A stretch of DNA of 32,000 bases, from assembly GCA_964354495.1 (NCBI GenBank), contig CAYHAA010000001.1, positions 188,075-220,074 on the forward strand, written 5' to 3'. Of this stretch, positions 4,878-32,000 are shown in pieces. The stretch's first letter is position 1. Each line of letters opens with the position of its first letter. Origin of the DNA: an uncultured archaeon. Lineage in GTDB: Archaea > Asgardarchaeota > Thorarchaeia > Thorarchaeales > Thorarchaeaceae. The notes under the pieces were generated by a model. It was given only the letters and a program-made list of their open reading frames with translations, did not search any database and was not told the origin of the DNA. The translations under genes were made by a program, and so were the position numbers.

Positions 4878-4989
4878 GGTAACCTTGGTACTACATATGT
4901 GCTGATAAATAACTTCCTCTATCTACAAATGGTCCTTGACTTCAAGTCACTCAGAAATCTAATTCTCGATAGTCGTTTACAGAACTTGA

Positions 4990-5029: not shown

Positions 5030-5041
5030 ATATTCTATCAT

Positions 5042-17114: not shown

Positions 17115-17121
17115 GAGCGAT

Positions 17122-18039: not shown

Positions 18040-18051
18040 GAGGCTGAAGAG

Positions 18052-18738: not shown

Positions 18739-18743
18739 TATCT

Positions 18744-19679
18744 TTGTTTGTTTTCGAGAAAGAGCAAATAATCCATAACATTGGCGGAGTCAAGATTGGA
18801 GGAAATCTCGGCGAGACTCCAACTGTTCTTGCCGGAACCATCTTCTACAGCGGGCACAAGATCGTTGAGAGTGCGGAGAAAGGCATTTTTGACAAGAATC
18901 TAGCAAGAGACCTTCTGCTAAAACAGGATGAGATGTCTGAAATGACAGGCAATCCTGCACTCGTGCAGATCTTCGCAGAGTCTGAAGAGGCTGTGGTGCG
19001 CTACATTGATTTTGTCACCAAGCTGTCTGATGCCCCATTTCTTATTGACTCAACTGAACCCAGGGTTCGAATTGCTGGATTGAAACACTGCGAAGAGGTA
19101 GGTCTCTCTGATAAGGCCATCTACAACTCTATCAACGTGTCCGCAACTCCCAGTGAGATTGAAGTCTTGAAAGAGTTGCGTCACGAATCTGCTATTGTTC
19201 TAGCCTTCAATCCCCAAGACCCCTCAATCGCGGGGAGGCGAGCAGTTCTTGAGAAGCCTATCTTGGAGAGAGAAAAGGGCCTCCTAGACTTGTGTCGTGA
19301 CATAGGCGTGACAAAGCCTCTCATCGACACAGCTGTCACAGCCATGGGTGCTGGAGCAGGCTCTGCTGCGGCCTTCACCTTTGTTTCAAAAACGGTGTAT
19401 GGCCTACCAACCGGGTCTGGGGTGCACAATGCTCCTTCGTCATGGACCTGGCTGAAGAAACACAGGAAGATTGACCGTGAGGCATATTTCACAACTGATG
19501 CAGCATCGAATGTCATAGTGCAAATGATGGGTGCTGATTTCCTACTCTATGGCCCGATTGAGAATGCCAATCGTGTGTTCCCTGTTGCTGCCCTTGCAGA
19601 TATCTTTGCGGCAGAATCCGGCTACTTGGAATTTGGAATTGAGCCTGGAGATAATCATCCGTTCAAGAAACTTCTCTGA
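18744..19679 (+). CDS. mtrH: MtrH-family pterin methyltransferase, canonical-looking paralog 2
   Basis: PTVLAGTIFY, FLIDST, IYNSIN, VLAFN, LIDTA, SGVHN, GADFLLYGPIENA; TTG start after AGGAGG. Confidence 0.9.
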   Translation: MFVFEKEQIIHNIGGVKIGGNLGETPTVLAGTIFYSGHKIVESAEKGIFDKNLARDLLLKQDEMSEMTGNPALVQIFAESEEAVVRYIDFVTKLSDAPFLIDSTEPRVRIAGLKHCEEVGLSDKAIYNSINVSATPSEIEVLKELRHESAIVLAFNPQDPSIAGRRAVLEKPILEREKGLLDLCRDIGVTKPLIDTAVTAMGAGAGSAAAFTFVSKTVYGLPTGSGVHNAPSSWTWLKKHRKIDREAYFTTDAASNVIVQMMGADFLLYGPIENANRVFPVAALADIFAAESGYLEFGIEPGDNHPFKKLL

Positions 19680-19694
19680 TAGGTGATGGCAATT

Positions 19695-21086
19695 ATGCGA
19701 GGCGTCTTGAGACCAAAGGCAATCGGACTATCCTCGCTCAGGATGGGTCCATTCTATACGGTCGCCTCTGTTGAACTTGGCAATACCACAACAAAGTGCA
19801 TTCTGGTCACAACGAATCTGGAAACCGCAGAGATATTCGAAATCGAAAAGGAAGTCAGGATGACGCGTGACGTGAGACCTCCGCAGGCGGATGAACAGGT
19901 ATTTGGCGAAACTCTGTTCGGAGTGCAATTGACTCGGGAATCAGTTGCTGAATTGGTCTCGAGTGTGCTAATCGCTGCCACGTCTCGGGCAGGAATCAAT
20001 ATTGAACGTGATCTTCACTTTGTAGTTCGCTCCACAGGCATCACTGCTAGCTTCGCCAATCCATCTGATGTTGGTGTTATCGTACAAGCTCTCGCGACTG
20101 GCTGTATTCAGGCAGGAATTCCCCCTCGAAAAATGACTGCGTCGATATCAGCTAAGAACTTGCCCACGGGTCTGCGAGAACTCACGTGGCTGAAGAAAGT
20201 GTATTTTGATGGGGCTGTTGCGTCCTCACTTCCACCAGCAAATACGGAAGTCGTTGCCAATGAGATGGAAGGCGAGCTGGTGACTGCAGGTATCAAGGGC
20301 GCAGTCAAGGGCACTGCTATCGATTTCAGGAACCCTGTGATGACCTTGGACTTCGGGACCACGCTTGCTGGCCGCATCACTGACAATGGATATCCGTATG
20401 CACGGACTATCGGCTCGTTTGCCGGGTTGGCTGGTGCAATACCCGATGCAATTACTCGTGGGTCTGGTCTGGTTCAATCTGAAACAGGGTGTGTTCTTGA
20501 TTTGCCTCATAGAGGCAGAATGTCGAAGATAGATATCAATCCGGAGCTGCTCGAACAAGTAAAGCGAATCATCCGGATCGAACGGGTCCCAAGAGGCTCG
20601 TCTCGATTTGGAACAGTACCAGTCAACACAGACGCCGCAGAAGAGTCGAATATCGTTCTAATCGGCGTGGACGCTGACCTCACCGCACTGGAGCGTTTCG
20701 GCTCCAGATTCAGTGGTTCAGAGGATGGAGCGTATCTGCTCCCCCTATTCGATAATCTTCAGGCGTGGATCCTACAGCGCATCGTGAGCATTGCTGACAC
20801 CGAGGGTCTAGTTCTTGATGAGACCTCCCTGGGACTGACAGGTAGGGCAATCACGAGCGGCCAGAAACCAAAACTGATCACTAAAGGGCTTCGGCTGAAT
20901 ACCGGAGACCTCTGGACAACATCGCACCAACTCGTCTTTGTGGAGGATGGTCTTGCAATGGGAGCTGCAGTAGCTGCAAGGTGCATGAACTCCATGGGGA
21001 CGCCACACAATCCAATGGGCGGTCGCAAAGGCGACCGATGTATCATGACTGAGAGGATGAAGCTTCAAGCTAAGAGGAAATCGTAA
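19695..21086 (+). CDS. Methanogenesis marker protein 14 (DUF2114; ASKHA ATPase fold)
   Basis: VASVELGNTTTKCIL, MTRDVRPP, LDFGTTLAG, VEDGLA.GAAV.ARCMNSMGTP.NP.GG motifs. Start is one of 19683, 19686 or 19695; 19695 has the best RBS spacing. Confidence 0.85.
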   Translation: MRGVLRPKAIGLSSLRMGPFYTVASVELGNTTTKCILVTTNLETAEIFEIEKEVRMTRDVRPPQADEQVFGETLFGVQLTRESVAELVSSVLIAATSRAGINIERDLHFVVRSTGITASFANPSDVGVIVQALATGCIQAGIPPRKMTASISAKNLPTGLRELTWLKKVYFDGAVASSLPPANTEVVANEMEGELVTAGIKGAVKGTAIDFRNPVMTLDFGTTLAGRITDNGYPYARTIGSFAGLAGAIPDAITRGSGLVQSETGCVLDLPHRGRMSKIDINPELLEQVKRIIRIERVPRGSSRFGTVPVNTDAAEESNIVLIGVDADLTALERFGSRFSGSEDGAYLLPLFDNLQAWILQRIVSIADTEGLVLDETSLGLTGRAITSGQKPKLITKGLRLNTGDLWTTSHQLVFVEDGLAMGAAVAARCMNSMGTPHNPMGGRKGDRCIMTERMKLQAKRKS

Positions 21087-21174
21087 TCGTTCTGCAATCC
21101 TTGGACGGTCGTCCATGATGTTCTTTGACAGTCTTTATCTTGATATCAATGTCTGTCTTGACCGGCGATCAACA

Positions 21175-21954
21175 ATGCTTGTGTACCCTATCAAGACACG
21201 CATCATTACAGAGAAAGATAACATCCTTGATGTCTTACTTGAGAGCCTTGCTCTTGCGGACATGGAGATTCTGGACAATGACATCATCACCGTTGCTGAA
21301 ACCCCACTTGGGACAACAGAAGGACGTATCGTGAAATTGTCAGATATCAAGGTTTCAAAGGAGGCTGCAAAGCTTGCAAAGAGGTATGAGTTGCTCCCTG
21401 AGATTGCTCAGTTGATCATACAAGAGGCGGATGAAATATTGGGGGGCATTCCTCATGTCGTCCTCACAATAAAGAACAACACTTTGATGGCTAATGCCGG
21501 GATTGACAAATCGAATGCGCCGCCAGGGCATGCATCACTGCTTCCACTGGATTCTCGTGCAAGTGCGGAGCGACTACGAGCAGAAGTGAAGAAGAGGACA
21601 GGGAAGACCATTGGCGTCATGATCATTGATAGCAGAACTCAGCCACTGAGACTTGGAAATATAGGCCTGGCTCTGGGAGTTGCAGGTTTCAAACCTGTCG
21701 CTGATGATCGGGGACGCAAGGACCTCTTCGGGAATGTGTTACGAATCACGAGAAGAGCTGTGGCCGATAATCTGGCCTCTGCATGCACAGCTGTCATTGG
21801 CGAGTCCAATGAGTCCGTCCCAGCGGCATTGATACGTGACGCTCCTGCTGAGTTTGTTGACGAGTCATTTGATTCATCTGAGATGTGGATTTCTCCAACG
21901 GAGTGTATGTATATGGCTATCTTCAACCAATGGCGTCAAGGTTATACAAACTGA
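21175..21954 (+). CDS. cofE: Coenzyme F420-0:L-glutamate ligase (CofE family)
   Basis: ANAGIDKSN, IIDSRTQPLRLG...A.GVAG, DLFG..L.IT..AVAD.LA, GES.E..P. Start placed at ATG 21175. Confidence 0.85.
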   Translation: MLVYPIKTRIITEKDNILDVLLESLALADMEILDNDIITVAETPLGTTEGRIVKLSDIKVSKEAAKLAKRYELLPEIAQLIIQEADEILGGIPHVVLTIKNNTLMANAGIDKSNAPPGHASLLPLDSRASAERLRAEVKKRTGKTIGVMIIDSRTQPLRLGNIGLALGVAGFKPVADDRGRKDLFGNVLRITRRAVADNLASACTAVIGESNESVPAALIRDAPAEFVDESFDSSEMWISPTECMYMAIFNQWRQGYTN

Positions 21955-22081
21955 CAATCTTATTTAGTACCAGTCATATGAAATAGGTGCACTTCATCAC
22001 CAAGCGGATGTGTCCCTCTTCGAGAGAAGAACGGCCCCGGTAGTGTTCTATCATCACGGTGGAGTACAGACAGGAGTATCG

Positions 22082-23440
22082 ATGGATTTGGCGAAGAAAA
22101 GAGTTCTAATCGACGTCGCGAATGCAGGAGCCTCTGGGGACATGTTCCTCTCTGCATTGATTGATCTTATTGGGGAAGATGACGTTCTTTTGCCTGTCGC
22201 TGCCAGTCTTCTGATATACGACCCTTCTTTCAGACTATCTGTGACCTCTAAGTCTCACTCAGGATACACCGGTAGGCAGCTGCAAATCACTCGTAATCCT
22301 GCTATACGACTCAATCCTGACTCGCTGATGGGAGCCCTACTTTCAGTTGCAGAAGAGATTGAACTTACGCCTCGAGCAAAGAATCTTGCCAAGGAAGCTC
22401 TGACAATCATCTTTCAGGCAGAAAGCAGAGCGCATAACAAACCAATATCTGAACTGCGGCTGCATGAAACTGGGTCCATTGATACAGTGTTGGACCTTGT
22501 GGGTACTGCATATCTTCTAGAACGCGCAGGACTGCTGGAAGATGCCGAGTTCGTTGCGACACGCGTTGCGGTTGGCAGCGGCACAATTGCGACAGAGCAA
22601 GGAGACCTCGAAGTTCCCGGACCAGCAGTTGCTGAGATTCTGGTCGGGCACGACATTCTCTTCCATAACGGTGAAGCCCGGACCGAGGTACTGACTCCAA
22701 CGGGAGCTGCACTTTTGGCCGCAATCACCAAAGTCTATGTGGATGCCTACGATGGCTTTGTGGCACAGAATCAGGGAATTGGTTTTGGTACCCGTGACTT
22801 GGGCAACATCCCGAACATGATGCGCATTGTAGTTGGCGAACTTGTTGTCCAAGAGGAAAAGAAGCCAGTTTCACCTCCAAAGGAAGAATCAAAGAAAGCG
22901 GCTGCGAAGGAGGGAAAAGCACCACCGGATTCGAAATCAAAGGCTGAAGAACGTTCGGAAGTGCTTGACGAGTGGAGTGCTGATGAGGTAGTTGTCATTG
23001 AAACGAATGTCGATGATGTTGACGGTGAGACCCTTGGTAGCCTCTTTGATACGCTGCTCGTAGAAGGATTGGCCTATGATGTCATTGTCATCCCAGCGTT
23101 TGGCAAGAAGAATCGACCATGTTTCCTCGTGAAGGTCATTGCGGCAAAGACAGGTCTGAAGAGTATTGCAGAGGTCATGATGCGCCATCTAGGAACAACT
23201 GGAATTCGATACTCGACTTGGCGACGATTGAAGGCAGCACGTGAAACAATCGTCTGTAGCCTGAACATTGATGACAAAGAATACATGGTTCGTGTCAAAG
23301 TTTCTCGCACGACAGATGGAAGTATCATCAGTATCAAACCAGAAGATGATGATGTGGAGCGTGTATCTCGTGAAACCGGCATTCCTATTCGTGAACTGAA
23401 ACCGAGGATTGCAATGCAGGCTCACGCGGTCACTGAGTAA
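22082..23440 (+). CDS. larC: LarC-like nickel-pincer cofactor Ni-insertase (DUF111)
   Basis: GASGDMFL.AL, HETGSID...D.VG, VPGPA, TPTGAA, GFG, ETNVDD..GE, KKNRP, TTG.R, KPE.DD; AGGAG RBS before ATG 22082. Confidence 0.85.
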   Translation: MDLAKKRVLIDVANAGASGDMFLSALIDLIGEDDVLLPVAASLLIYDPSFRLSVTSKSHSGYTGRQLQITRNPAIRLNPDSLMGALLSVAEEIELTPRAKNLAKEALTIIFQAESRAHNKPISELRLHETGSIDTVLDLVGTAYLLERAGLLEDAEFVATRVAVGSGTIATEQGDLEVPGPAVAEILVGHDILFHNGEARTEVLTPTGAALLAAITKVYVDAYDGFVAQNQGIGFGTRDLGNIPNMMRIVVGELVVQEEKKPVSPPKEESKKAAAKEGKAPPDSKSKAEERSEVLDEWSADEVVVIETNVDDVDGETLGSLFDTLLVEGLAYDVIVIPAFGKKNRPCFLVKVIAAKTGLKSIAEVMMRHLGTTGIRYSTWRRLKAARETIVCSLNIDDKEYMVRVKVSRTTDGSIISIKPEDDDVERVSRETGIPIRELKPRIAMQAHAVTE

Positions 23441-25712
23441 TAAGTTGCAGCTGGCCCGGATCTCCTCCTTTCACTTGTCCGAGGTACTGTGCAGGAATCA
23501 GGTTCTCAAAGGCACGCTCACACAGGTCTGAATACGCTCTTGGATCATATCTTGTCGACTCATCGAAGAGTTCCAGTGCTTTCACTCTCCGTAATGGATT
23601 CGTCGAGTCTGCATGGACCATGACGTACCTGACCCGTTGCCCTGCGTGAAGCTCTTGTCCCGCCTTGGCAAGCTGTTGAGCGACAACAGCGGCTCTTGAC
23701 ACGGCACGATATTCATGAGGGTCTCTAGTCAGATTTGCGTTCAGGATGAGGTCTCTGAGGTCAACATCATAGTCGTAGAGTCTATCCATATATCTGAAAC
23801 AGACCTCGTATGCCTCGGGCATACGCTGTAGAAAGCCGGCCTTATCAGTAGCTTGGGCTAGTGTCTTAATCATGGCCATCTGACAGTCGCCAACATAGAG
23901 ACAGGTGTCCCTTCTTCGGGTCTCTATCCCTCGCGTCTTGATTCCCCCGTTCCTGTAGACTCCATAGTATCGATTCAGTGGTGCAATTGATGGATGCAGT
24001 CGTGACGATGGGATGACCATCCATTTGTAGACTCCCTTTGGGGACATCTTGATGTTGACTTTCTCGGACACACGTTTGCAGAATTCCAGAACGGTCCTGT
24101 ATTCCACTCTCTCCTTGTTTGCCCTCAACCAGACTGAGTCCACAATGCCGTGTAGCATCTCAAGCCCCATCTCCTCCCCAATCTCCTGGGTTTCAAGCAT
24201 GACCTCCCTTGAAAGTGCAGTGACCGCGGTATGCGCCTCAACTCTTCCGAACTTTGCGTTCTTGAATCCGAGATATCCAAAACACGAAACCAGCACTCCC
24301 TTCAGAGTGTTCTGCATAATCTCATACTTCTCAGTGTCGCGTCCCTGTTCTATCAGTTTCTTGATGTCGGTCCGTCTATTGACAAGCATTTCCAATGACT
24401 TGGATACTATCCCTCTCCTGTGTGTGCATATTCTAAAGCTCTGCTGAGGAATCTCGATGCAGTATTGGTAATCATATGGGCACTTGGTCCTCGTACAGAT
24501 TGTTTCCGGGCTGATATTCCTGGTGACCATGAGCGTTGGGTACATCGATGAGAAGTCGCACTCTGCAATGTCCTCATAGATGTCCGGTCTTGGTTGGAAA
24601 ATCAAACCTCCCCTGTCTATGGATGTCAGTTCAGTGATTGTCTTCAAGAACTCTGGATTCCGTTTGATAGGTGGTATAAGAATGTCCATCTTGTAGGCAT
24701 TGTAGAACTGTACCGCCGCGTTCACCGCGCCAATCGTCATCTGTGAGACCCTGTGCGGTCTGCCCAGAGCAAGCCTGCAGCTCTCTATGATTCCCTCCAA
24801 TCCCATTGGCGAATAGAAATGCATGCCTGTCCTTCCCCGGTCGATGTGAATTCTCCCGTTCAATATGACATGCGTTCCTGACCTGAACATGATTCGATTG
24901 TATTGCCAGAACGACTGAGGTTCAGTGAAGACCACGTTCAATGGTGACTTGTCTCGGGATAGTGTCAGTTCCACTCCGTTGACCTTGGATCGTATGGTGA
25001 GGTATCGAAAGAGGTCATCATCTCCTCCTCTACTGATTATCACATCAGGGTCTATCTCATCAATGACGGCTTGGAAGTGTCTGAGAATCTCTCCCTCGTC
25101 ATCATCCTGGATGTCTACGGTCCCACCTCTATGATAGACCTCAATATGCTGGATTCTGTCCTCCATCTTGGGGAAGATCTGCTCTGTGGCTATGAACACC
25201 TCAAAGTCCATCATCTCAAGTTCTGGAATGTCATACTCTGGGTTCTCTCGCTTGTCAAGGCCTCTGATACTGATGACCTCATCCCCTCTCAGTTCAAACT
25301 CTACACGTCCAAAAGCGAACATGTCATTGGCTATGAAGAACTGCTGAACTGGATTAATATCCGCATGGAATACTGTGGCTCCCGGCAGCAGCTCAAGATC
25401 TTTTGCCACTTCCTGAAGTGCATCTGGTGTAGTGAACACCTGTAGGACCGGTGTCTTCTCTTCATCATAGACACTGGTGTATCTGTGTACGATTTTTGCG
25501 TCAACGACCCTTGGGTGTTCGAGAACTGTTTGCAGGATGCCTGTTTCAGTCCAGTCCCTGCTTCCAATCATATCTGTACTGACAAAGACTGAGGGATTGA
25601 ACCCGCGATAGGTGTAGCCCTTGGTCTTTCCCTCCGCCTTGATCCAGAGGGTCAGTGCCTGCTTCTCGTTGTCCACATTGGCGTCCAGAAGCCATCCAGT
25701 TGTGCTCGTCAG
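23430..25712 (-). CDS. polB2: Family B DNA polymerase, PolB2 (Dpo2) group
   Basis: Motif A DFSSMYP, motif B K..L.S.FGYLG, altered motif C HGIVDS typical of PolB2, KTRGIE; degenerate exonuclease motifs. The frame continues upstream of the tracked GTG (25676) through GWLLD to a CTG at 25712. Confidence 0.88.
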   Translation of the reverse strand: MTSTTGWLLDANVDNEKQALTLWIKAEGKTKGYTYRGFNPSVFVSTDMIGSRDWTETGILQTVLEHPRVVDAKIVHRYTSVYDEEKTPVLQVFTTPDALQEVAKDLELLPGATVFHADINPVQQFFIANDMFAFGRVEFELRGDEVISIRGLDKRENPEYDIPELEMMDFEVFIATEQIFPKMEDRIQHIEVYHRGGTVDIQDDDEGEILRHFQAVIDEIDPDVIISRGGDDDLFRYLTIRSKVNGVELTLSRDKSPLNVVFTEPQSFWQYNRIMFRSGTHVILNGRIHIDRGRTGMHFYSPMGLEGIIESCRLALGRPHRVSQMTIGAVNAAVQFYNAYKMDILIPPIKRNPEFLKTITELTSIDRGGLIFQPRPDIYEDIAECDFSSMYPTLMVTRNISPETICTRTKCPYDYQYCIEIPQQSFRICTHRRGIVSKSLEMLVNRRTDIKKLIEQGRDTEKYEIMQNTLKGVLVSCFGYLGFKNAKFGRVEAHTAVTALSREVMLETQEIGEEMGLEMLHGIVDSVWLRANKERVEYRTVLEFCKRVSEKVNIKMSPKGVYKWMVIPSSRLHPSIAPLNRYYGVYRNGGIKTRGIETRRRDTCLYVGDCQMAMIKTLAQATDKAGFLQRMPEAYEVCFRYMDRLYDYDVDLRDLILNANLTRDPHEYRAVSRAAVVAQQLAKAGQELHAGQRVRYVMVHADSTNPLRRVKALELFDESTRYDPRAYSDLCERAFENLIPAQYLGQVKGGDPGQLQLITQ

Positions 25713-25984
25713 GGGTTGCTCCTCTCCCGCATTTGCTCCAGAGCTTCAACCCTCTTTCCAATCAGATCAATCTCTTCTTGCATTCTGAGGACTGCAGAGA
25801 GGAGAATGACCTCCGTAATGCGTGGCGTTGGAATCATCGTGCCTGCGTCTGCTAGGCTCCTCGCATGATCGAATATTCTATCGAAGACCTCTCTCTGGGC
25901 TGGTCTGAGGGTACGCCTGAATTCTTTCCAGCGATCCTCCTCAATCCTGATTGCATCTCTGAATGTACGGACTGTGCGTCCCAT
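25709..25984 (-). CDS. Small conserved PolB2-associated helical protein (arCOG07300-like)
   Basis: N-terminus MGRTVRTFR...W..FRR.L; directly upstream of polB2 with a 4-nt overlap, the arrangement known for PolB2 operons. Confidence 0.75.
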   Translation of the reverse strand: MGRTVRTFRDAIRIEEDRWKEFRRTLRPAQREVFDRIFDHARSLADAGTMIPTPRITEVILLSAVLRMQEEIDLIGKRVEALEQMRERSNP

Positions 25985-26164: not shown

Positions 26165-26638
26165 TTGGCTTACAGAGTGATAATTCGTTGCCCAGATGCA
26201 GAGGACATCATCAGACTCCTCAAGGAGAAGCATGGCGCTGACTACTCACGGGTATGGCGAATAGATGGCCGCACATTTGGAGTATTCTCATTTGAGAGGA
26301 GCGCAATTTTCCCTTATACTTCGTATGTCAGTTTAATCACGCTTGAACATGACAAGACTTCAGAGAGATGTGACATCACCATAATCGGAGCAGGGGGCTC
26401 AGTGAGAGGAGTCACTGAACTGGATTCTCCTAGAGCAGGTCAAGTGCAAGATCTTGCCAGTCTAGCTAAGGCGCGGGGATGGGAGACACACATAGAAGAA
26501 GCAAAGATAAAATCGCGAGGTAGTCCATGTCCTAACTGCGGCTCAGCTTATGTCTATTCTAAAGACAAGATTCAGGCAGATGGCTCAGTGGTCTGCCAGA
26601 ACTGCGGAAAACCATTCATGATTCAAGAAGGACGATGA
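26165..26638 (+). CDS. Hypothetical protein with C-terminal Zn ribbon (N-terminus loosely DUF6054-like)
   Basis: CPNC-x17-CQNC; alpha/beta N-terminal domain with FER..SL...I.AGG; fills an otherwise empty gap; TTG start after GGTGG. Confidence 0.7.
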   Translation: MAYRVIIRCPDAEDIIRLLKEKHGADYSRVWRIDGRTFGVFSFERSAIFPYTSYVSLITLEHDKTSERCDITIIGAGGSVRGVTELDSPRAGQVQDLASLAKARGWETHIEEAKIKSRGSPCPNCGSAYVYSKDKIQADGSVVCQNCGKPFMIQEGR

Positions 26639-26793
26639 ATAGTGCATGTTTGATGCCGGCTACACATGCAACCAGCTTATTCCTAGGGCCTGTTCTTCAT
26701 CATCTATTCAATCGGCATAGACTCAAATAGCGGAAATAACATTTATCGCCCGGTGTCCCAAGAGTGGATACCAACTAGTTCAGGGTGCATAAG

Positions 26794-27360
26794 ATGGTAA
26801 CTGCACTATTCAAGGTCGTACTCATGGGAGATGGAAGCGTCGGAAAGACGAGTCTCCGTAGGACCTACATGGGAGAAGGATTCCGAGCCAACTACATGAT
26901 CACCATTGGTGCTGACTTTGCAGTGAAGAAGATGCAGCTTCATGGCGGCCATGATGTAAGCATTCAGATCTGGGATCTCGCAGGACAGGAACACTTCAAG
27001 AGTGTACGTTCCACCTTCTACCGTGGAGCTCAGGGTGCACTTGCGGTGTATTCAACTGTCGAGCGGGGATCTTTTGATAACCTTATGAATTGGGTGGACG
27101 AGTGCTGGACCAATGCTGGCAAGAAGATACCAATCGTACTGATTGCGAACAAGACTGACCTTCGAGACCAGTTCAAGGACAATCCAGTCATGGCGAAGAC
27201 CATCGTGACCACAAAAGAAGGTCAGAAACTGGCAGACAAGATTGCAGGCTATGGTGTAATCACATCCTTCCTTGAAACGAGTGCAAAGACAGGAATAAAT
27301 GTAGAGGCTGCCTTCCTAGAACTGGCAATCAAGATTCTGGAAGCTGGTGGACTGGCCTAA
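26794..27360 (+). CDS. Rab-like small GTPase 1
   Basis: GDGSVGKT, TIGADF, WDLAGQ, FYRGA, NKTD, ETSAK; no C-terminal Cys motif. Start placed at ATG 26794. Confidence 0.92.
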   Translation: MVTALFKVVLMGDGSVGKTSLRRTYMGEGFRANYMITIGADFAVKKMQLHGGHDVSIQIWDLAGQEHFKSVRSTFYRGAQGALAVYSTVERGSFDNLMNWVDECWTNAGKKIPIVLIANKTDLRDQFKDNPVMAKTIVTTKEGQKLADKIAGYGVITSFLETSAKTGINVEAAFLELAIKILEAGGLA

Positions 27361-27370
27361 TCACAGTCCA

Positions 27371-28591
27371 TCAATCATCTTCTAACACTCCAAGGTTTCT
27401 CTGTATCGTTTCAAAAAGATCACTAGCAGCAGTCTGGAGTATCTCTGCATCGTCCGCAAAGATGTCAATCCGGATTCTGGATAGGCTGTCTTCCTTTTTG
27501 CCAACAACAGTTGTTGTGACTGCAATTCTGGTTCCACTGAATTTGCCCCTTGCTAGTCCTGCTTCAACTCCCATGAATACTCCTCCCCTCTCTAGAACAT
27601 CATTTTGGAATACGTAGAGGTTCTTGCCTTCTAGAATTGGCTGTATGGACTTGAAGAAGCCTGTTGCCTCTGCAAGTACAGTATGCTCCCGGTTCCATTG
27701 TTTCATCTTCGACTTCATATGGACGAACTCATCGGATGTTGTTTCAAGAGGGATGAACCGCTCAAACAAAGAGCGCACAAAGACATTTCCTGCCTTTGCT
27801 GAGAGATCCTCACCTTTAGAGTCCATAAGGTGCACAGAAGTGATGATCTCTCCTTCTATACACTCACCATGAATTGTGAAACCAAAGATGAGCGAGCCAC
27901 TCTGCCCTTGGTCGATGAACTCTATTGTTTGTGCCAACGGATCGACTGGCACAAGGGACTCCTGTGGATATGCAAGGATTTTCACAGTGATGTCGCTTAT
28001 CGGAGTGTCCATCTCATTCTTTATAGTGATGCCATACTCCAATGTTTCAGAGGTAGTTGTGTACTGGTTCACGATAAGGACATCATCCGTTGTCCGGAGA
28101 GGAATCGTATCAGTATCGAGAAGCAGCTCGGTTGGGTCCTCTCGCGATTTTGCTGATGGTTTGCTTTTTCGCGCCTCTTTGCCATATTTCATGAGCCATT
28201 CTAGGGCGAATTCTACTACCTCTTTCACCGTTGAATCATTATCACTAGTATGTTTCTTGAGAATAGGTACAGCATCACTTCTGTTCGTGTGTGCCAACAT
28301 ACCTGCTGCTACTGTTCGTATCAGCGGGTTTTCATTGTTCAGAGCAATGTCCAGAGAATCGAACGCATCAGCACCAAACTCTCCCAATCTGCAGACTGCG
28401 AGTAGTTGCAGATCTTCATCACCAGTCAGAGCTGCGTCTCTACACGCCTGAATGCTCATGACCTCTCTCAACATCCTCTCTATTTTATCTTCAGTCGGCT
28501 TGAAGATTCGCTTTATTGCTTTCTTTAACCCACTGACTGATTCTCCACCACCAAGCGCTTCTGACACTACTCTATCAGGTTTTTGGGGCAA
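27371..28591 (-). CDS. HEAT-repeat protein with a C-terminal adaptin/coatomer appendage-like region (Ig-like sandwich plus platform)
   Basis: HEAT-type repeats (LLAVCRLGEFG; LIRTVAAGMLAH; VKEVVEFALEW), linker, beta-rich domain (YGITIKNE..TPISDITV), then FERFIPLETTSDEF...RIRIDIFADD. HEAT call is firm; appendage call is by eye. Confidence 0.7.
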   Translation of the reverse strand: MPQKPDRVVSEALGGGESVSGLKKAIKRIFKPTEDKIERMLREVMSIQACRDAALTGDEDLQLLAVCRLGEFGADAFDSLDIALNNENPLIRTVAAGMLAHTNRSDAVPILKKHTSDNDSTVKEVVEFALEWLMKYGKEARKSKPSAKSREDPTELLLDTDTIPLRTTDDVLIVNQYTTTSETLEYGITIKNEMDTPISDITVKILAYPQESLVPVDPLAQTIEFIDQGQSGSLIFGFTIHGECIEGEIITSVHLMDSKGEDLSAKAGNVFVRSLFERFIPLETTSDEFVHMKSKMKQWNREHTVLAEATGFFKSIQPILEGKNLYVFQNDVLERGGVFMGVEAGLARGKFSGTRIAVTTTVVGKKEDSLSRIRIDIFADDAEILQTAASDLFETIQRNLGVLEDD

Positions 28592-28752
28592 GGAATTACC
28601 TTCGAGGCATCTCGCTCTTGTTTTGGTATTTAATCATTATTGTGCGTGAAGTGAAACCTGTCATCTGCAACACAGGTACCGAGCTTTGTCTGCATTCACA
28701 ACACTTTTACGGCATCCCTGAATTCTTTCTCTGTCAATCGGCCTTGCGTGTG

Positions 28753-29883
28753 ATGTCAATGGGGAACGATGAACAAGACATTTTCTTGAAACCCACCATC
28801 CTTAAGCCACCAGCTGAACATGGCTCCGAGATAACGCGTCGTTTTACGATGAACCGTGTGGGTCGGATGTTCGCCGCAGCTCTTCAAGACCGAAGTATCC
28901 GACTCTACGCGGCTGATGACTGGACTGAGATGCAACGTATGCAGGATGACTTCCTCAGCACGTCTCTTGCCTTCAGTCCAAGAGGTGACATTGTAGCCTC
29001 GGGAACTGTAGAACGGATAGTGAAGCTATGGGACATCCGCTCGGGAGAGTGCATAGGAGCTCTTGAGGGGCATACATATCCTGTATTGTCGCTCTCATTC
29101 TCTCCTGATGGTAGCAGACTGGTGTCAGGAAGTGGTGACACATCTCTGATTATCTGGAATGTTGAAAATCGCTCGCTAGTTCGTCAGATGAAAGGCCATG
29201 GCTTCTATGTCGTGGCCGTAGACTGGGACCCACAAGGTAGCCGAATTGTTTCAGGCTCTGTAGATGCCAACATCTGCGAATGGGATGCAGAAACGGGGAA
29301 AATCATTGCACGTCACAGTGACCATCGAGCAGCAGTCAGAGAGGTTCGATTCAGCCCTGATGGTTCACTGCTTGCGTCTGGCTCATCTGATCTAACAGTG
29401 CTACTGTGGGACACCTCATACAAACCGATGAAAGTCGCACATACACTTCAACGGCATGAGAGTGAGGTCAGGGCTTTGGGCTTTAGCAGCGATGGACGTT
29501 ATCTGGCCTCCGGGTCTGGTGACAGGGTGATCTATCTTTGGGACGTTGCAACACAGACTGTTCGGGGTGAGGCATCCACAATGGGCGAGATTGACGGAAT
29601 CGAATGGTATCCCTCTCGGAGTGCTTTCCTAACCGCTGATGGCACAGGTGCTATCATTCGCTGGGACGTAGACGACATGAATGCAATGTTAGAGCCATTC
29701 CAATCCCTATTGAAAGAGATAGAAACTGCGAACGATCCGAGCCGCAAGAATGAGTTCATCAACCAATACGAAACTCTTTGTGCGCAGTATGATGAGGAAA
29801 CTCTACAGACCAAACGCATGTTCTATGTAGTATGGCAATGCAAACGTGCTCTTGGCCTATTGAAAGGAACTACACGTCAATAA
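28753..29883 (+). CDS. Seven-bladed WD40 beta-propeller protein with short helical C-terminus
   Basis: Seven repeats ending RLY, LWD, IWN, EWD, LWD, LWD and RWD, with GH/DH/RH dipeptides. Start placed at ATG 28753 (or 28759). Confidence 0.9.
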   Translation: MSMGNDEQDIFLKPTILKPPAEHGSEITRRFTMNRVGRMFAAALQDRSIRLYAADDWTEMQRMQDDFLSTSLAFSPRGDIVASGTVERIVKLWDIRSGECIGALEGHTYPVLSLSFSPDGSRLVSGSGDTSLIIWNVENRSLVRQMKGHGFYVVAVDWDPQGSRIVSGSVDANICEWDAETGKIIARHSDHRAAVREVRFSPDGSLLASGSSDLTVLLWDTSYKPMKVAHTLQRHESEVRALGFSSDGRYLASGSGDRVIYLWDVATQTVRGEASTMGEIDGIEWYPSRSAFLTADGTGAIIRWDVDDMNAMLEPFQSLLKEIETANDPSRKNEFINQYETLCAQYDEETLQTKRMFYVVWQCKRALGLLKGTTRQ

Positions 29884-29884
29884 T

Positions 29885-30439
29885 CTAGCCTTGGAATGCA
29901 GGATTAGTAGGCTTTGACCTTCCCTCTTCGATCATCGTCTTGCATAGCGTGACATATGCTTCCTCTACGTTTTCGCCAGTGAGGGCACTGGATTCAACAT
30001 ACAGGAAGCCATTCTTCTTGGCGTATTCCTCTCCTTCCTCTTTGCTCACCGCTCTGCTATCAACGAGGTCTACCTTGTTTGCTACTACGACGAGTGGAAT
30101 CTTGTCCTTCAGGTTTTTGAATGCCTCTTCTTTCCAGGCATCCGAGTTAATGAAAGTCCTCCGCCTCGTCACGTCGTAGAGCAGGAGACCACCTCTAGAC
30201 CCTCTATAGAAACCCTGCCTGACGAACTCGAAACGCGGCTGACCTGCAAGGTCCCAGATCTGCAGTGTCACATGTGCGTCCAACTCAGGTATGACAAGTC
30301 TCTTGACGGAGAAATCAGTGCCAATGGTCCTCTTGTAGTCCGCTTCAAAGTAGTCCTGAGTGAATCTAGTTGTCATGGCAGTCTTGCCGACTGCACCATC
30401 ACCGAGCATCACAATCTTGAATCGAAATTCAGCGGACAT
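29885..30439 (-). CDS. Rab-like small GTPase 2
   Basis: GDGAVGKT, TIGTDF, LQIWDLAGQ, FYRGS, LLYDVT, NKVD, ESSAL; no C-terminal Cys motif. Start placed at ATG 30439 (track: 30454). Confidence 0.92.
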   Translation of the reverse strand: MSAEFRFKIVMLGDGAVGKTAMTTRFTQDYFEADYKRTIGTDFSVKRLVIPELDAHVTLQIWDLAGQPRFEFVRQGFYRGSRGGLLLYDVTRRRTFINSDAWKEEAFKNLKDKIPLVVVANKVDLVDSRAVSKEEGEEYAKKNGFLYVESSALTGENVEEAYVTLCKTMIEEGRSKPTNPAFQG

Positions 30440-30477
30440 GAGAACGAACTCCATCTTCTTTGAGAGAGGCTTAAGGC

Positions 30478-30526
30478 ATTTAAATCTCTACTTTGAGTCA
30501 GAGGACAGGCTCAAACTATTTAATAA
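30478..30526. promoter_or_regulatory. Candidate divergent TATA boxes between GTPase 2 and roadblock
   Basis: ATTTAAAT (30478-30485) and TATTTAATAA (30517-30526) in the 135-bp divergent gap. Confidence 0.45.
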
Positions 30527-30574
30527 GCAACCACACAATTCGACAAGTACTGCAAGGACTGATGGTGTGTTCAT

Positions 30575-30958
30575 ATGGAACGACCAGATTATCGCGAACT
30601 TCCCAAGATTCTCGAGACTATGAATAGAGAGGGCAGCTATTCTGCCTCAGTTCTCGCGCGTGGAAATGGTCTACTTGTTTCATCAGCCACATCCCCCAAG
30701 ACTAACCAAGATGTGGTCGCAGCAATGTGCGGGATGATTGCTGATGTTGCTGAGCGAGTTCGAAAGGAGTTGTTTCTGGGAGAGATCAAGGACATCAGTC
30801 TTCGTTGTGCAGATGGAAAGGCGGTCTTCAAACGAGTAGGTGCTCGAGGTGATGATATATTGATTATCGGGGCAATCATGGCCCGAGATGTTCGCTATCA
30901 CTCCCGGGCAATAGGCAAGGCAACCACAAGAATCCGTATCCTTATGGGGTACAAATGA
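30575..30958 (+). CDS. Roadblock/LC7 (MglB-like) domain protein
   Basis: SVLA..NGLLVSS, VAAM...I..VAERV..EL.LGE, followed by beta strands; size is typical. Confidence 0.85.
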   Translation: MERPDYRELPKILETMNREGSYSASVLARGNGLLVSSATSPKTNQDVVAAMCGMIADVAERVRKELFLGEIKDISLRCADGKAVFKRVGARGDDILIIGAIMARDVRYHSRAIGKATTRIRILMGYK

Positions 30959-31059
30959 ACGAAGCGCCTTCTTTGGTGCAATATTACACATCTTCAAAAC
31001 ATTCAAGTGATATCTCATTCATCTAATGGTGCCGTTTCTTCACCTTAGGAGTGCGTGAC

Positions 31060-31380
31060 TTGAAGACAGAACCAATCGTGTCAGAGGCGGAGCATTCCGA
31101 CATGATTGAGATTGTTCTCTTCAAATCCGATTCATGTGCGTTCTGTCCGAGGGCTGAAGAAGTGGTGATAGAAACAATTAATGACTTTGGACCTGGTATA
31201 TTCAAGCTAACAGTCATCAATGTCAGTGAGAATCCAGAGGCTGCTGAAGAATACGGCATCTTTGCCTTACCAACAGTAATGATTGGAGGCGTATCAATCA
31301 CTGGTATTCCCGAACCGGAGATGCTTATGAAAATGGTACTCGGAGCCAAGGTCATGATGAAGAAGAAGGGTGAAACCTGA
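31060..31380 (+). CDS. Thioredoxin-fold protein (CxxC), KaiB-resembling
   Basis: CAFCP; V.V.ENPE.AEEYGI.ALPT; G.P. Start placed at TTG 31060 after AGGAG (track: 31051). Confidence 0.85.
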   Translation: MKTEPIVSEAEHSDMIEIVLFKSDSCAFCPRAEEVVIETINDFGPGIFKLTVINVSENPEAAEEYGIFALPTVMIGGVSITGIPEPEMLMKMVLGAKVMMKKKGET

Positions 31381-32000
31381 TGAGCGATTATGTAATAGAC
31401 CGAGTAAAGACTGGCATTCCAGGTCTTGATGAGCTGATAGAAGGAGGTTTTCCAAAGGGAGACACCATCCTTATTGCGGGAAAAGCTGGCACCGGCAAGA
31501 GCATACTTGCGACTCAGTTCATCTACAAAGGTGTCACTGAGTATAATGAGCCAGGAGTGTTTGTGACGCTAGAAGAGCCTCCCAGGCTGATCAGAAGGAA
31601 TATGCTCAGATTTGGTATGGACCTTCAAAAGCTCGAGAAAGAGGGCAAGATCTCAATTGTGGACCTCTCCCCCTCTAAGGAAGCCACTCCTGTCACATTG
31701 GTGGAGTATCCGAGTTTCGACCTGTCTGGTCTACAGGCGATAATAATGAATCACATCAAGAAGATCCATGCTACTCGCGTTGTACTTGATACCCTCTCGA
31801 TTATGGCTTACAAATTTCGAAGCCGGGATATTCTCAGGGAGGAATTCTTCAAGCTCGCAGCCAACATCACGCGAACTGGATGCACACTCCTGATTACGAG
31901 TGAGATTCCGGCACAAGAAACAGGATTGGGCGTCTTCGATATGGAGGCCTTCTTGGCATCAGGCGTGATAGTTCTCTATAACGAGAAGATATCCGATACA
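31380..32000 (+). CDS. KaiC/RAD55-like RecA-fold ATPase, 3' end truncated by window
   Basis: Hand translation from ATG 31380: TGIPGLDELIEGGFP, Walker A GKAGTGKS, VTLEE, Walker B RVVLD, TSE, GVIVL; open to 32000. Confidence 0.9.
   Translation, partial: MSDYVIDRVKTGIPGLDELIEGGFPKGDTILIAGKAGTGKSILATQFIYKGVTEYNEPGVFVTLEEPPRLIRRNMLRFGMDLQKLEKEGKISIVDLSPSKEATPVTLVEYPSFDLSGLQAIIMNHIKKIHATRVVLDTLSIMAYKFRSRDILREEFFKLAANITRTGCTLLITSEIPAQETGLGVFDMEAFLASGVIVLYNEKISDT

What the first reader, a model, noticed from the sequence alone, without database searches (positions are those of the whole stretch)
26794..30958. Candidate proto-coatomer cassette: two Rab-like GTPases flanking a HEAT-appendage gene and a WD40 gene, plus roadblock
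Seen: a mirror-symmetric layout GTPase1 -> <- HEAT/appendage | WD40 -> <- GTPase2 | roadblock ->. The convergent gaps are 10 and 1 bp, and the HEAT and WD40 genes share one divergent gap. Established: eukaryotic coats and adaptors (COPI, AP/clathrin, BBSome) are built from beta-propellers, alpha-solenoids and appendage domains recruited by small GTPases, and roadblock proteins act as GTPase regulators (MglB, Ragulator). Inference: these five genes may encode a minimal GTPase-regulated coat/adaptor split into separate parts. Asgard homologues of the individual domains are known; I cannot tell whether this linked set has been described.
Basis: partly seen in the sequence, partly recalled or inferred. 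Interest (0 to 1): 0.85.

Follow-up and report, generated by a model that had tools for sequence, protein, structure and literature searches.

The report
Thorarchaeal Rab neighbourhood with mini-adaptin
In this Thorarchaeota (Asgard) genome, two Rab-like GTPases, a WD40 propeller and a roadblock gene sit next to a gene whose predicted fold is a miniature vesicle-coat adaptor, but that gene is optional and nothing yet shows the five act as one coat machine.

Summary
All five genes are real, at the stated coordinates, with the stated 10-bp and 1-bp convergent gaps.

The "HEAT/appendage" call holds. AlphaFold2 gives a short HEAT stack, a disordered hinge and a bilobed ear. The ear matches COPI beta/gamma and AP2 alpha/beta2 appendages (Z 18.4 to 13). 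GTPase 2 is the orthologue of the crystallised Thor-Rab (PDB 7EZB).

The five-gene "proto-coatomer cassette" is not supported:
- In 10 of 17 genera of the family the locus lacks the HEAT-ear gene (GTP1>WD40><GTP2).
- Two species keep the ear gene but have no WD40 orthologue.
- In one genus the roadblock gene stays with thioredoxin-KaiC and is separated from GTPase 2.
- About ten unrelated upstream genes (MtrH/A, CofE, LarC, PolB) keep their order just as well, so gene order alone proves little.
- The WD40 protein is a generic 7-blade propeller with no solenoid. The HEAT trunk is about 100 residues, against about 600 in adaptins.

Best reading: separable small-GTPase switch units plus an accessory, soluble ear-bearing adaptor.

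The scan found the same arrangement before on another Thorarchaeota genome (e1-4542593). Eme et al. 2023 could not detect a solenoid-plus-appendage fusion in Asgard archaea, so the architecture looks undescribed.

The parts
26794..27360 (+). GTPase 1: Rab-like small GTPase, 188 aa from the ATG at 26794. It has the catalytic Gln (DLAGQ) but no switch-I Arg. Family-specific inserts lie after NKTDL (9 aa) and before ETSAK (6 aa). No C-terminal Cys.
   Evidence: Pfam Ras E 1.8e-46. Best PDB sequence matches are Thor-Rab, Rab1, Rab8 and Ypt7. Orthologues at 73-96% identity occur in all 17 genera. Alignment.
27371..28591 (-). HEAT-hinge-ear protein ('mini-adaptin'), 406 aa, no TM-like segment predicted.
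   Evidence: AF2 model with pLDDT 89. Foldseek and VIA-align matches to COPI and AP2 appendages. Full-length orthologues in 7 of 17 genera.
28499..28546 (-). Residues about 16-31 of the HEAT-ear protein: a conserved cationic amphipathic helix. It is a candidate membrane- or partner-binding element (inference).
   Evidence: Helix 16-29 in the model. In most orthologues the hydrophobic moment is 0.7-0.9 and the net charge +5 to +7 over 14 residues. Alignment.
28184..28486 (-). Short HEAT-repeat stack, residues about 36-136.
   Evidence: Pfam HEAT_2 E 2.9e-6 for residues 57-130. VIA Z 15-16 to alphaRep HEAT proteins over about 92 residues.
28097..28183 (-). Flexible hinge, residues about 137-165, with a semi-conserved acidic-hydrophobic motif (E-I/L-L-L/I-D/E-T-D/E) just before the ear.
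   Evidence: pLDDT is 51-55 for residues 141-160 and below 50 for residues 144-150. Motif conservation among orthologues.
27767..28096 (-). Ear subdomain 1: beta-sandwich (Ig-like), residues 166-275.
   Evidence: Strand pattern in the model. It aligns with the sandwich halves of the alpha-adaptin, beta2-adaptin and COPI appendages.
27395..27757 (-). Ear subdomain 2: alpha/beta platform (TBP-like), residues 279-399, with an orthologue-specific W-N/S-R-E-H motif at residues 299-303.
   Evidence: Model. VIA alignments span 168-396/401. Motif.
28592..28752 (.). Divergent intergenic region between the HEAT-ear and WD40 genes, with an AT-rich TATA-like stretch near 28624-28640.
   Evidence: Sequence. 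The WD40 start is inferred from where orthologue alignments begin.
28753..29883 (+). WD40 protein, 376 aa from the ATG at 28753. It is a seven-bladed propeller (about 28780-29676) plus a three-helix tail of about 60 residues (about 29677-29853).
   Evidence: Pfam WD40 E 2.7e-47. AF2 pLDDT 93.8 with 28 strands and 4 helices. Nearest solved folds are generic WD40 proteins: the Thermomonospora WD40 domain, WDR5 and RACK1.
29885..30439 (-). GTPase 2: orthologue of the crystallised Thor-Rab. It keeps the switch-I Arg (R42 counted from the longer ORF, equal to Thor-Rab Arg37).
   Evidence: PDB 7EZB E 7.9e-91 over 174 residues. The Arg is conserved in 19 of the 20 GTPase-2 sequences aligned, while GTPase 1 has Ile there. 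Tran et al. 2024, PMC10933270.
30440..30574 (.). Divergent intergenic region between GTPase 2 and the roadblock gene, with two TATA-like boxes (about 30480 and about 30518).
   Evidence: Sequence.
30575..30958 (+). Roadblock/LC7 protein, 127 aa. It is the first gene of a co-directional roadblock-Trx-KaiC-KaiC2 array.
   Evidence: Pfam Robl_LC7 E 2.4e-7. Weak PDB matches to Asgard roadblock structures 7YH1 and 7F8M. It stays with Trx-KaiC when separated from GTPase 2.
31051..32000 (+). Context: a thioredoxin-fold gene (31051-31380) overlapping the start of a KaiC-like ATPase gene (31380 onward, which runs off the window).
   Evidence: Pfam Thioredoxin_3 E 2.3e-8. The KaiC-like reading of the ATPase rests on its Walker A motif and on scan notes e1-5383303/-304; I did not scan it against Pfam. 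The array is conserved with the roadblock gene in all genera examined.

Best explanation
This is an old gene neighbourhood specific to one Thorarchaeota family. It is built from separable units, not from one five-gene machine.

Unit 1. A very conserved Rab-like GTPase (GTP1) is followed by a generic seven-bladed WD40 propeller. A second Rab-like GTPase (GTP2, the orthologue of crystallised Thor-Rab) converges on the propeller gene.

Unit 2. A roadblock gene heads a roadblock-thioredoxin-KaiC-KaiC2 array, usually divergent from GTP2.

Unit 3. In 7 of 17 genera, including this one, a further gene sits between GTP1 and WD40. It encodes a soluble 'mini-adaptin': a cationic amphipathic N-terminal helix, about 100 residues of HEAT repeats, a disordered hinge, and a bilobed ear of the adaptin/COPI appendage fold.

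Inferred mechanism:
- The GTPases act as nucleotide switches.
- The propeller and the ear protein are effector or scaffold platforms.
- The ear serves as a protein-binding hub, as in eukaryotic adaptors.
- The HEAT stack, hinge or N-helix contact a GTPase, another partner or the membrane.
- The roadblock protein is a candidate MglB-like regulator of GTP2, which keeps an MglA-like switch-I arginine.

Shown here: gene content, predicted folds, orthology, and the distribution across genera. Inferred: every physical interaction and any membrane role. It is not a coat in the eukaryotic sense.
For: Gene identities:
- Pfam.

Folds:
- AF2 models have pLDDT 89 and 94.
- The ear gives VIA Z 18.4 (rmsd 3.4, 224 of 243 residues) to a COPI appendage (9qpq_H), Z 16-16.5 to the AP2 alpha ear, Z 14 to the beta2 ear, Z 13 to the gamma-COP ear and Z 11 to BBS9.
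- The 19 best Foldseek PDB hits are all COPI, AP2 or BBSome.
- Swiss-Prot models of gamma-COP, beta-COP, TPLATE and AP-1 beta align colinearly over query residues about 10-399.

GTP2:
- It matches Thor-Rab 7EZB at E 7.9e-91.
- Its switch-I Arg is conserved in 19 of the 20 GTPase-2 sequences aligned.

Distribution:
- The order GTP1, (HEAT), WD40, GTP2, roadblock, Trx, KaiC, KaiC2 is found in 17 loci of the own genus and in loci of the 16 other genera.
- The HEAT-ear gene occurs in 7 of 17 genera. GTP1 occurs in 17 of 17.

GTPase-roadblock link in general:
- The own genome has further GTPase-roadblock neighbours at C3:4073-4914 and C6:96130-98538.

Ear module family:
- The module recurs in more than 100 Thorarchaeota-type representative proteins. 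It is fused to LVIVD or SBBP propellers, LRR and TSP3 repeats, mostly just after a TM-like segment.
- WD40-ear and PQQ-propeller-ear fusions appear among AlphaFold DB clusters.
- These fusions fit a membrane-proximal interaction module that often works alongside propellers.
Against: - No interaction among the five products has been shown.
- About ten unrelated upstream genes (MTHFR, MtrH, MtrA, DUF2114, CofE, LarC, PolB) keep their order across the same genera. Conserved order may therefore reflect slow rearrangement in this family and not functional coupling.
- In the sister family the nearest GTP1 homologue (53% identity) sits among unrelated genes. There is thus no independent recurrence outside the family.
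- Every junction in the region except WD40|GTP2 is broken or interrupted somewhere:
  - GTP1 lies 15 kb or more away in most species of genus g25.
  - WD40 is lost in two g25 species.
  - Roadblock-Trx-KaiC is on another contig in g29.
  - Extra DNA lies between GTP2 and the roadblock gene in g23 and g27.
- The ear has no sequence-level match to adaptin or COPI appendage families, even at E up to 10.
Confidence: 0.5

Rival explanations
1. Inherited neighbourhood without shared function. The five genes are independent members of large Asgard families (26 Ras-like and 11 roadblock genes in this genome). They stay adjacent only because gene order in this family is generally stable.
For: - Unrelated upstream genes (MtrH/MtrA, MTHFR, CofE, LarC, PolB) are syntenic across the same genera.
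- None of the pairs inside the cassette is co-directional. All are convergent or divergent.
- The HEAT-ear gene is dispensable for the rest, and WD40 is dispensable for the HEAT-ear gene.
- The cassette is not seen in the sister family.
Against: - In the ten genera without the HEAT-ear gene, GTP1 and WD40 are co-directional. The gap is about 90-130 bp in eight of them and about 450 bp in g22, so the pair looks operon-like there.
- GTPase-roadblock adjacency recurs at other places in this genome, far more often than 26 and 11 genes scattered over 3.3 Mb would give.
- Propeller-ear and solenoid-ear fusions exist elsewhere.
Confidence: 0.25
2. The five genes encode a minimal GTPase-recruited coat or adaptor split into parts. 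The HEAT-ear protein acts as the adaptor subunit, WD40 as the cage or cargo-binding propeller, the GTPases as recruiters and roadblock as their regulator. Together they deform or sort membrane.
For: - The trunk-hinge-ear architecture matches the C-terminal halves of beta/gamma-COP, adaptins and TPLATE.
- The HEAT-ear and WD40 genes share a divergent regulatory region.
- A conserved cationic amphipathic N-terminal helix could bind membrane.
- Most ear paralogues are membrane-anchored.
Against: - The HEAT-ear gene is absent from the intact locus in 10 of 17 genera.
- WD40 is lost in two species that keep the ear gene.
- The trunk is about 100 residues, not about 600, and gives no Adaptin_N hit.
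- The WD40 protein has no alpha-solenoid and resembles WDR5 or RACK1, not coat propellers.
- No mu, sigma or longin subunits are found in the window.
- Neither GTPase has a lipid-anchor cysteine.
- The roadblock gene segregates with KaiC.
Confidence: 0.07
3. A KaiC-centred signalling unit with a GTPase output. The roadblock-Trx-KaiC-KaiC2 array is the functional core, an ATPase/redox sensor with a roadblock adaptor. It controls GTP2, while WD40 and the ear protein are downstream effectors.
For: - Roadblock, Trx, KaiC and KaiC2 are co-directional with short gaps or overlapping stops and starts. They stay together in every genus, also when detached from GTP2.
- The array is divergent from GTP2 across about 135 bp with two TATA-like boxes.
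- GTP2 keeps an MglA-like Arg.
Against: - In g29 the array is on another contig, and no Ras-like gene lies within about 4 kb of the roadblock gene.
- No known system couples KaiC-like ATPases to Rab-like GTPases.
- No interaction was tested.
Confidence: 0.15

Closest known systems
Thor-Rab of Candidatus Thorarchaeota SMTZ1-45 (PDB 7EZB/7EZD/7EZE; Tran et al. 2024, PMC10933270)
   Same: GTPase 2 is its orthologue: E 7.9e-91 and roughly 80% identity over 174 residues. It keeps Arg37 in switch I, the catalytic Gln, and the lack of C-terminal cysteines.
   Different: That paper studied the protein alone. It stated that partners are hard to predict from genome layout. The present work gives its conserved neighbours (WD40, roadblock, GTP1 and, in some genera, the ear protein) as candidate partners.
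Large subunits of AP complexes and COPI-F (alpha/beta2-adaptin, beta/gamma-COP, TPLATE): trunk, hinge, appendage
   Same: The domain order is the same: helical repeat, disordered hinge, then an ear made of a beta-sandwich plus an alpha/beta platform. VIA Z is 18.4 to 13 over 207-224 residues, and alignments to gamma/beta-COP models are colinear.
   Different: - The trunk is about 100 residues of generic HEAT_2 repeats, not about 600 residues of Adaptin_N.
- There is no sequence-profile match to the appendage families.
- No mu or sigma partners are encoded nearby.
- The gene is present in only 7 of 17 genera.
- Common descent of the whole architecture, as opposed to an independent fusion of two widespread modules, is not shown.
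Archaeal adaptin-appendage-like (Ig + TBP) modules in ESCRT-linked and other proteins (Makarova et al. 2024, mBio; 10.1101/2024.02.06.579148), and the stand-alone AP domains of Asgard archaea (Eme et al. 2023, PMC10307638)
   Same: The bilobed ear fold is the same. It is proposed there as a protein-interaction hub, is fused to propellers, Zn-ribbons, longin, Vps28-C or GOLD through TM linkers, and is tentatively linked to small GTPases.
   Different: Eme et al. state that they could not detect an appendage domain right downstream of Adaptin_N. Here a solenoid, a hinge and a full ear lie in one soluble chain, beside Rab-like GTPases and not beside ESCRT genes.
MglA-MglB (bacterial Ras-like GTPase with roadblock GAP) and Ragulator/Rag
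   Same: A roadblock-fold gene lies next to a small GTPase that carries a switch-I arginine at the MglA Arg53 position.
   Different: - The genes are divergent, not co-transcribed.
- The roadblock gene belongs to a Trx-KaiC array and separates from the GTPase in one genus.
- GAP or GEF activity is untested.
Protocoatomer proteins (beta-propeller followed by alpha-solenoid: clathrin, alpha/beta'-COP, Sec31, Nups, HOPS/CORVET-like Thorarchaeia proteins)
   Same: A beta-propeller gene and a helical-repeat gene are neighbours.
   Different: The propeller protein has only a three-helix tail of about 60 residues, and the repeat protein has only 3-4 HEAT units. The defining propeller-plus-solenoid chain is absent.

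Membership tests
Ras-superfamily small GTPase, Rab-like (Asgard type) | G-domain with P-loop GxxxxGKT, DxxGQ, NKxD and SAK/SAL motifs | tested here: met
   Pfam Ras E 1.8e-46 (GTP1) and 7e-50 (GTP2). The motifs are visible in the alignment.
Ras-superfamily small GTPase, Rab-like (Asgard type) | Eukaryotic Rab hallmark: C-terminal prenylatable cysteines | tested here: not met
   No Cys occurs in the C-terminal tails of GTP1 or GTP2 or of their orthologues. Tran et al. reported the same for Thor-Rab.
Thor-Rab orthologous group (PDB 7EZB) | High full-length identity, and Arg at the switch-I position of Thor-Rab Arg37 | tested here: met
   E 7.9e-91 over residues 6-179 against 1-174. R42 is present, and the Arg is conserved in 19 of the 20 GTPase-2 sequences aligned.
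Adaptin / COPI-F large subunit | Long N-terminal Adaptin_N alpha-solenoid trunk (about 500-600 residues) | tested here: not met
   Only HEAT_2 matches, over residues 57-130. The helical region spans about residues 36-136.
Adaptin / COPI-F large subunit | Flexible hinge between trunk and ear | tested here: met
   pLDDT is about 51-55 for residues 141-160 and below 50 for residues 144-150, between two confident domains. This rests on a prediction only.
Adaptin / COPI-F large subunit | C-terminal bilobed appendage (beta-sandwich plus platform) | tested here: met
   VIA Z 18.4 (9qpq_H), 16.5 (AP2 alpha ear), 14.0 (beta2 ear) and 13.2 (gamma-COP ear), each covering both subdomains. Foldseek E 8e-12 to 1e-8. 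This is fold level, on a predicted model.
Adaptin / COPI-F large subunit | Sequence-profile membership in the appendage families (Alpha_adaptinC2, B2-adapt-app_C, COP-gamma_platf, Coatomer_b_Cpla) | tested here: inconclusive
   hmmscan of residues 160-406 finds none of them at E up to 10. Remote homology below HMMER's reach is not excluded.
Adaptin / COPI-F large subunit | Heterotetramer partners (second large subunit, mu, sigma) encoded with it or co-occurring | tested here: not met
   No Clat_adaptor_s, Adap_comp_sub or longin-type hits among the window's genes. The rest of the genome was not searched for them.
Protocoatomer (propeller + solenoid coat protein) | Beta-propeller followed by an extended alpha-solenoid in one chain | tested here: not met
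   The WD40 model has seven blades plus a three-helix tail of about 60 residues. The nearest folds are generic WD40 proteins.
Protocoatomer (propeller + solenoid coat protein) | Self-assembly into a lattice or cage on membrane | not testable with these tools
   This needs biochemistry or electron microscopy.
MglA/MglB-type GTPase-roadblock pair | A roadblock/LC7-fold protein next to a small GTPase with an intrinsic switch-I Arg | tested here: met
   Robl_LC7 at 30.8 bits against a cut-off of 23. GTP2 has R42. The genes are divergent across about 135 bp.
MglA/MglB-type GTPase-roadblock pair | Stable genetic linkage of the two genes | tested here: inconclusive
   They are adjacent in most genera. 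Extra DNA interrupts them in g23 and g27, and they lie on different contigs in g29, where roadblock stays with Trx-KaiC.
MglA/MglB-type GTPase-roadblock pair | GAP (or GEF) activity of the roadblock dimer on the GTPase | not testable with these tools
   This needs a phosphate-release or nucleotide-exchange assay.

The most novel reading that the evidence does not exclude
The HEAT-hinge-ear protein is a surviving relative, or a close analogue by descent of its ear, of the ancestor of adaptin/COPI large subunits. In Thorarchaeota it would be recruited by a Rab-like GTPase to the membrane through its cationic N-terminal helix. There its ear and hinge would bridge a WD40 propeller and the ear-like cytoplasmic tails of surface receptors. 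That would make it a working pre-eukaryotic GTPase-adaptor-propeller sorting module.
Probability: 0.08. Interest if true: 0.9.

Novelty: new variant of a known kind. Interest (0 to 1): 0.55.

Why it matters
How vesicle coats and adaptors arose is an open question in eukaryogenesis. Asgard genomes were known to hold the separate domains. Eme et al. 2023 explicitly failed to find a solenoid and an appendage in one chain. This locus offers such a chain: small, soluble and confidently modelled. It lies beside the only crystallised Asgard Rab-like GTPase and beside a propeller and a roadblock protein.

That turns a vague idea into a short list of pairwise binding, GAP and liposome experiments with five small proteins.

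This analysis also limits the claim. The ear gene is optional, the units separate in some genomes, and conserved gene order here is a weak argument.

Tried and rejected
- Complex prediction of WD40 (alignment A2) with the HEAT-ear protein (alignment A1): score 0.00 against a mark of 0.32. The verdict is 'no answer', so it counts neither for nor against binding. GTPase pairs with WD40, the ear protein or roadblock could not be tried.
- Expression: no RNA holder was listed among public runs for 26700-31000.
- Pfam on the ear (residues 160-406) at E up to 10: no adaptin or COPI family.
- PDB sequence search of the whole HEAT-ear protein: only alphaRep/HEAT matches.
- Search for the cassette outside the family: in the one genome of the sister family, the nearest GTP1 homologue sits among LarA, DUF2299, DUF134 and NifB-like genes.
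- Fold search of the WD40 model for coat-type propellers: only generic WD40 proteins top the list.
- Polarising gain or loss of the HEAT-ear gene with a tree of six locus proteins: two ear-less groups are well supported ({g15,g18,g21,g26} 99%; {g17,g22,g27} 98%). The backbone has 17-53% support, so the number of gains and losses is unresolved.
- Clathrin-box reading of the hinge motif (ELLLDTD / EILLDTD): it resembles LLDLD but does not fit the L-phi-x-phi-[DE] consensus. It is kept only as an observation.
- The 'mirror symmetry' of the layout: no repeat or duplication underlies it. GTP1 and GTP2 are 42% identical and form distinct orthologous groups.

Full report
**Observation.** The window lies in a Thorarchaeota (Asgard) genome, as shown by source names of near-identical proteins. 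It corresponds to G000:C1:188075-220074.

ORF listing and Pfam confirm five genes at the stated places:
- GTP1 (26794-27360 +): Ras family.
- A 406-aa protein (27371-28591 -): only a HEAT_2 hit, over residues 57-130.
- A WD40 protein: ORF 28618-29883 +, likely start at 28753.
- GTP2 (29885-30439/30454 -): Ras family.
- A roadblock/LC7 protein (30575-30958 +).

The convergent gaps are 10 bp and 1 bp, as reported. Downstream, a thioredoxin-fold gene and a KaiC-like ATPase gene follow the roadblock gene in the same direction. Upstream lies a family-B DNA polymerase gene.

**The HEAT protein really has an adaptin-type ear.** I aligned 20 full-length orthologues, two short ear fragments and 28 ear-module stretches cut from distant paralogues with the window protein (alignment A1). 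The sequences came from two protein searches.

AlphaFold2 gave a confident model with pLDDT 89:
- helices to residue 136;
- a low-confidence hinge, about residues 141-160;
- a beta-sandwich (166-275);
- an alpha/beta domain (279-399).

Fold comparisons agree with one another:
- The 19 best Foldseek matches in the PDB are COPI beta/gamma chains, AP2 alpha and beta2 appendages, and BBS9 (E 8e-12 to 1e-6).
- VIA-align gives Z 18.4 (rmsd 3.4, 224 of 243 residues) to a COPI appendage, Z 16-16.5 to the alpha-adaptin ear, Z 14 to the beta2 ear and Z 13 to the gamma-COP ear. Each alignment spans both subdomains.
- Against Swiss-Prot models, the whole chain aligns colinearly with the C-terminal halves of gamma-COP, beta-COP, TPLATE and AP-1 beta.
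- AlphaFold DB clusters and the ESM Atlas give the same picture.

At the sequence level there is no match to any appendage family, even at E up to 10. The helical part is a generic HEAT_2 stack of about 100 residues, closest to alphaRep proteins. It is not an Adaptin_N trunk.

Orthologues share three further features:
- a cationic amphipathic helix near the N-terminus;
- an acidic-hydrophobic motif in the hinge;
- a WNREH motif at the start of the platform.

**The other four proteins.** GTP2 is the orthologue of Thor-Rab, the only crystallised Asgard Rab-like GTPase (7EZB; E 7.9e-91 over 174 residues). It keeps the switch-I arginine that Tran et al. compare with the intrinsic arginine finger of MglA. 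That Arg is conserved in 19 of the 20 GTPase-2 sequences aligned.

GTP1 forms a separate orthologous group, 42% identical to GTP2. It has Ile at that position and two conserved inserts. It is unusually constrained, at 73-96% identity across the family. Neither GTPase has C-terminal cysteines.

The WD40 protein folds as a seven-bladed propeller plus a three-helix tail of about 60 residues (pLDDT 94). Its nearest solved folds are generic WD40 proteins: the Thermomonospora WD40 domain, WDR5 and RACK1. It has no alpha-solenoid.

The roadblock protein passes the Pfam cut-off. It is only distantly related to the solved Asgard roadblock structures.

**Conservation and its limits.** The order PolB, GTP1, HEAT, WD40, GTP2, roadblock, Trx, KaiC recurs in 17 loci of the own genus. 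With a second KaiC-like gene next to the first, it also recurs in six other genera, where the HEAT protein drops to about 30% identity.

Four observations weaken the idea of a five-gene unit.
1. *The ear gene is optional.* In the ten remaining genera of the family the locus is intact but has no HEAT-ear gene. GTP1 is followed directly, on the same strand, by WD40; the gap is about 90-130 bp in eight of these genera and about 450 bp in g22. GTP1 orthologues occur in 17 of 17 genera and the ear gene in 7 of 17. A tree of six locus proteins does not resolve how many gains or losses this implies.
2. *WD40 is also dispensable.* In two species of genus g25 the WD40 gene is missing at the locus. No orthologue is found elsewhere in those genomes (77% and 88% complete), yet the ear gene remains next to GTP2. 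In most g25 species GTP1 lies 15 kb or more away.
3. *Roadblock goes with KaiC.* In genus g29 the roadblock-Trx-KaiC array is on another contig, still together and with no Ras-like gene beside it. In g23 and g27, extra DNA separates roadblock from GTP2. Roadblock therefore belongs first to the Trx-KaiC array.
4. *Background synteny is high.* About ten unrelated upstream genes (MTHFR, MtrH, MtrA, MtrH, DUF2114, CofE, LarC, PolB) keep their order across the same genera. Conserved order is thus the background state of this region and not a special property of the cassette. In the only genome of the sister family, the closest GTP1 homologue lies in an unrelated context.

**Evidence for some coupling.**
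- GTP1 and WD40 look operon-like wherever the ear gene is absent.
- WD40 and GTP2 remain convergent neighbours in every genome that has both.
- GTPase-roadblock neighbours recur elsewhere in this genome (C3:4073-4914, C6:96130-98538). That is far more than 26 and 11 genes scattered over 3.3 Mb would give.
- The ear module is a large family in Thorarchaeota. Of 109 paralogous cluster representatives, 64 have a TM-like hydrophobic segment within 140 residues upstream of the module. Their N-terminal parts carry LVIVD or SBBP propellers, LRR or TSP3 repeats.
- WD40-ear, PQQ-propeller-ear and TPR-ear fusions occur among AlphaFold DB clusters.

These fusions fit an ear that is a membrane-proximal interaction module, often working with propellers. 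That is the role Makarova et al. propose for archaeal appendage-like domains.

**Mechanism proposed (inferred).** Two Rab-like switches act with platform proteins. GTP1 would pair with the WD40 propeller. GTP2/Thor-Rab would have the neighbouring roadblock protein as its candidate MglB-like regulator, itself tied to a Trx-KaiC module. In some lineages a soluble ear-bearing adaptor is added. It could bind a GTPase or the membrane through its N-helix and HEAT stack, and recruit partners through its hinge and ear. None of these contacts has been shown. The one complex prediction allowed (WD40 with the ear protein) gave no answer, and no RNA data were found.

**Comparison with what is known.**
- Domain-level homologues of AP and COPI subunits in Asgard archaea are published. 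Eme et al. state that they could not detect an appendage domain right downstream of Adaptin_N and found only stand-alone versions.
- Makarova et al. describe Ig+TBP appendage regions across archaea, fused to Vps28-C, longin, GOLD or propellers.
- Tran et al. solved Thor-Rab and noted that its partners cannot be read from genome layout.
- I found no paper describing the HEAT-hinge-ear protein or this neighbourhood.
- The scan itself noted the same arrangement earlier on another Thorarchaeota genome, with the same 'mini-adaptin' reading (e1-4542593).

**Membership.** The protein meets the hinge and ear features of large adaptin subunits at fold level. It fails the trunk feature and shows no mu or sigma partners nearby. 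The WD40 protein fails the propeller-plus-solenoid definition of protocoatomer proteins.

**Verdict.** The appendage call is confirmed at the level of a predicted fold. The 'proto-coatomer cassette' reading is only partly supported. This is a new variant of known kinds (archaeal ear-domain proteins and Asgard Rab-like GTPases). Its main value is a concrete, testable set of candidate partners for Thor-Rab. Interest 0.55.

Noticed in passing
Related proteins P0131-P0270; own-genome copies at G000:C9:100123-100899 and G000:C2:145902-146549; tandem arrays e.g. G018:C15:4434-11155 and G002:C156:60166-65176: The ear (sandwich + platform) module forms a large family that is mostly Thorarchaeota, to judge by the few source names available. 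Of 109 paralogous cluster representatives, 64 have a TM-like segment within 140 residues upstream of the module. Their N-terminal parts carry LVIVD or SBBP propellers, LRR or TSP3 repeats, which suggests surface receptors with a cytoplasmic ear. Proteins of about 760-790 aa carry two modules. Several genomes hold tandem arrays of 350-430-aa copies.
   Followed up: partly
window 30575-32000 and beyond; L058:7001-8438: The roadblock, thioredoxin-fold (KaiB-like hit, E 2.9e-5) and KaiC-like genes form a co-directional array, with a second KaiC-like gene next to the first in the related loci. It stays intact in every genus examined, also where it is detached from GTPase 2 (g29).
   Followed up: partly
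window 16200-25984: Upstream genes keep their order across the genera of the family examined. They are MTHFR, MtrH, MtrA, a second MtrH, DUF2114, a CofE-like F420 ligase, a LarC-like nickel insertion protein, PolB and a 91-aa ORF. The two g25 loci compared do not reach this far. This sets a high background of synteny in the region.
   Followed up: yes
window 26165-26638: A 157-aa protein with a C-terminal zinc ribbon lies between PolB and GTPase 1. It was found in only one other locus (L028, 56% identity), so this slot is variable.
   Followed up: partly
window 26794-27360 (GTPase 1): GTPase 1 carries a conserved 9-residue insert after NKTDL, at the position of the Rho insert, and a 6-residue insert before ETSAK. 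It also has a conserved C-terminal ILEAGGLA tail. Its 73-96% identity across the family is far higher than for its neighbours.
   Followed up: partly
window 360-7027: Three large minus-strand ORFs. A 660-aa protein has a zinc-dependent phospholipase C domain. Proteins of 819 aa and 661 aa have no Pfam match at E up to 1e-5.
   Followed up: no
L051:7190-9377 (genus g23): The PolB orthologue matches as two abutting pieces in different frames (query residues 1-357 and 358-732). This suggests a frameshift, a split gene or an assembly error.
   Followed up: no
L030:7355-9182 and L032:7260-9149 (genus g25): The WD40 gene is deleted, so GTPase 2 and the HEAT-ear gene lie co-directionally about 100-180 bp apart. 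This is a natural 'ear without propeller' variant.
   Followed up: partly
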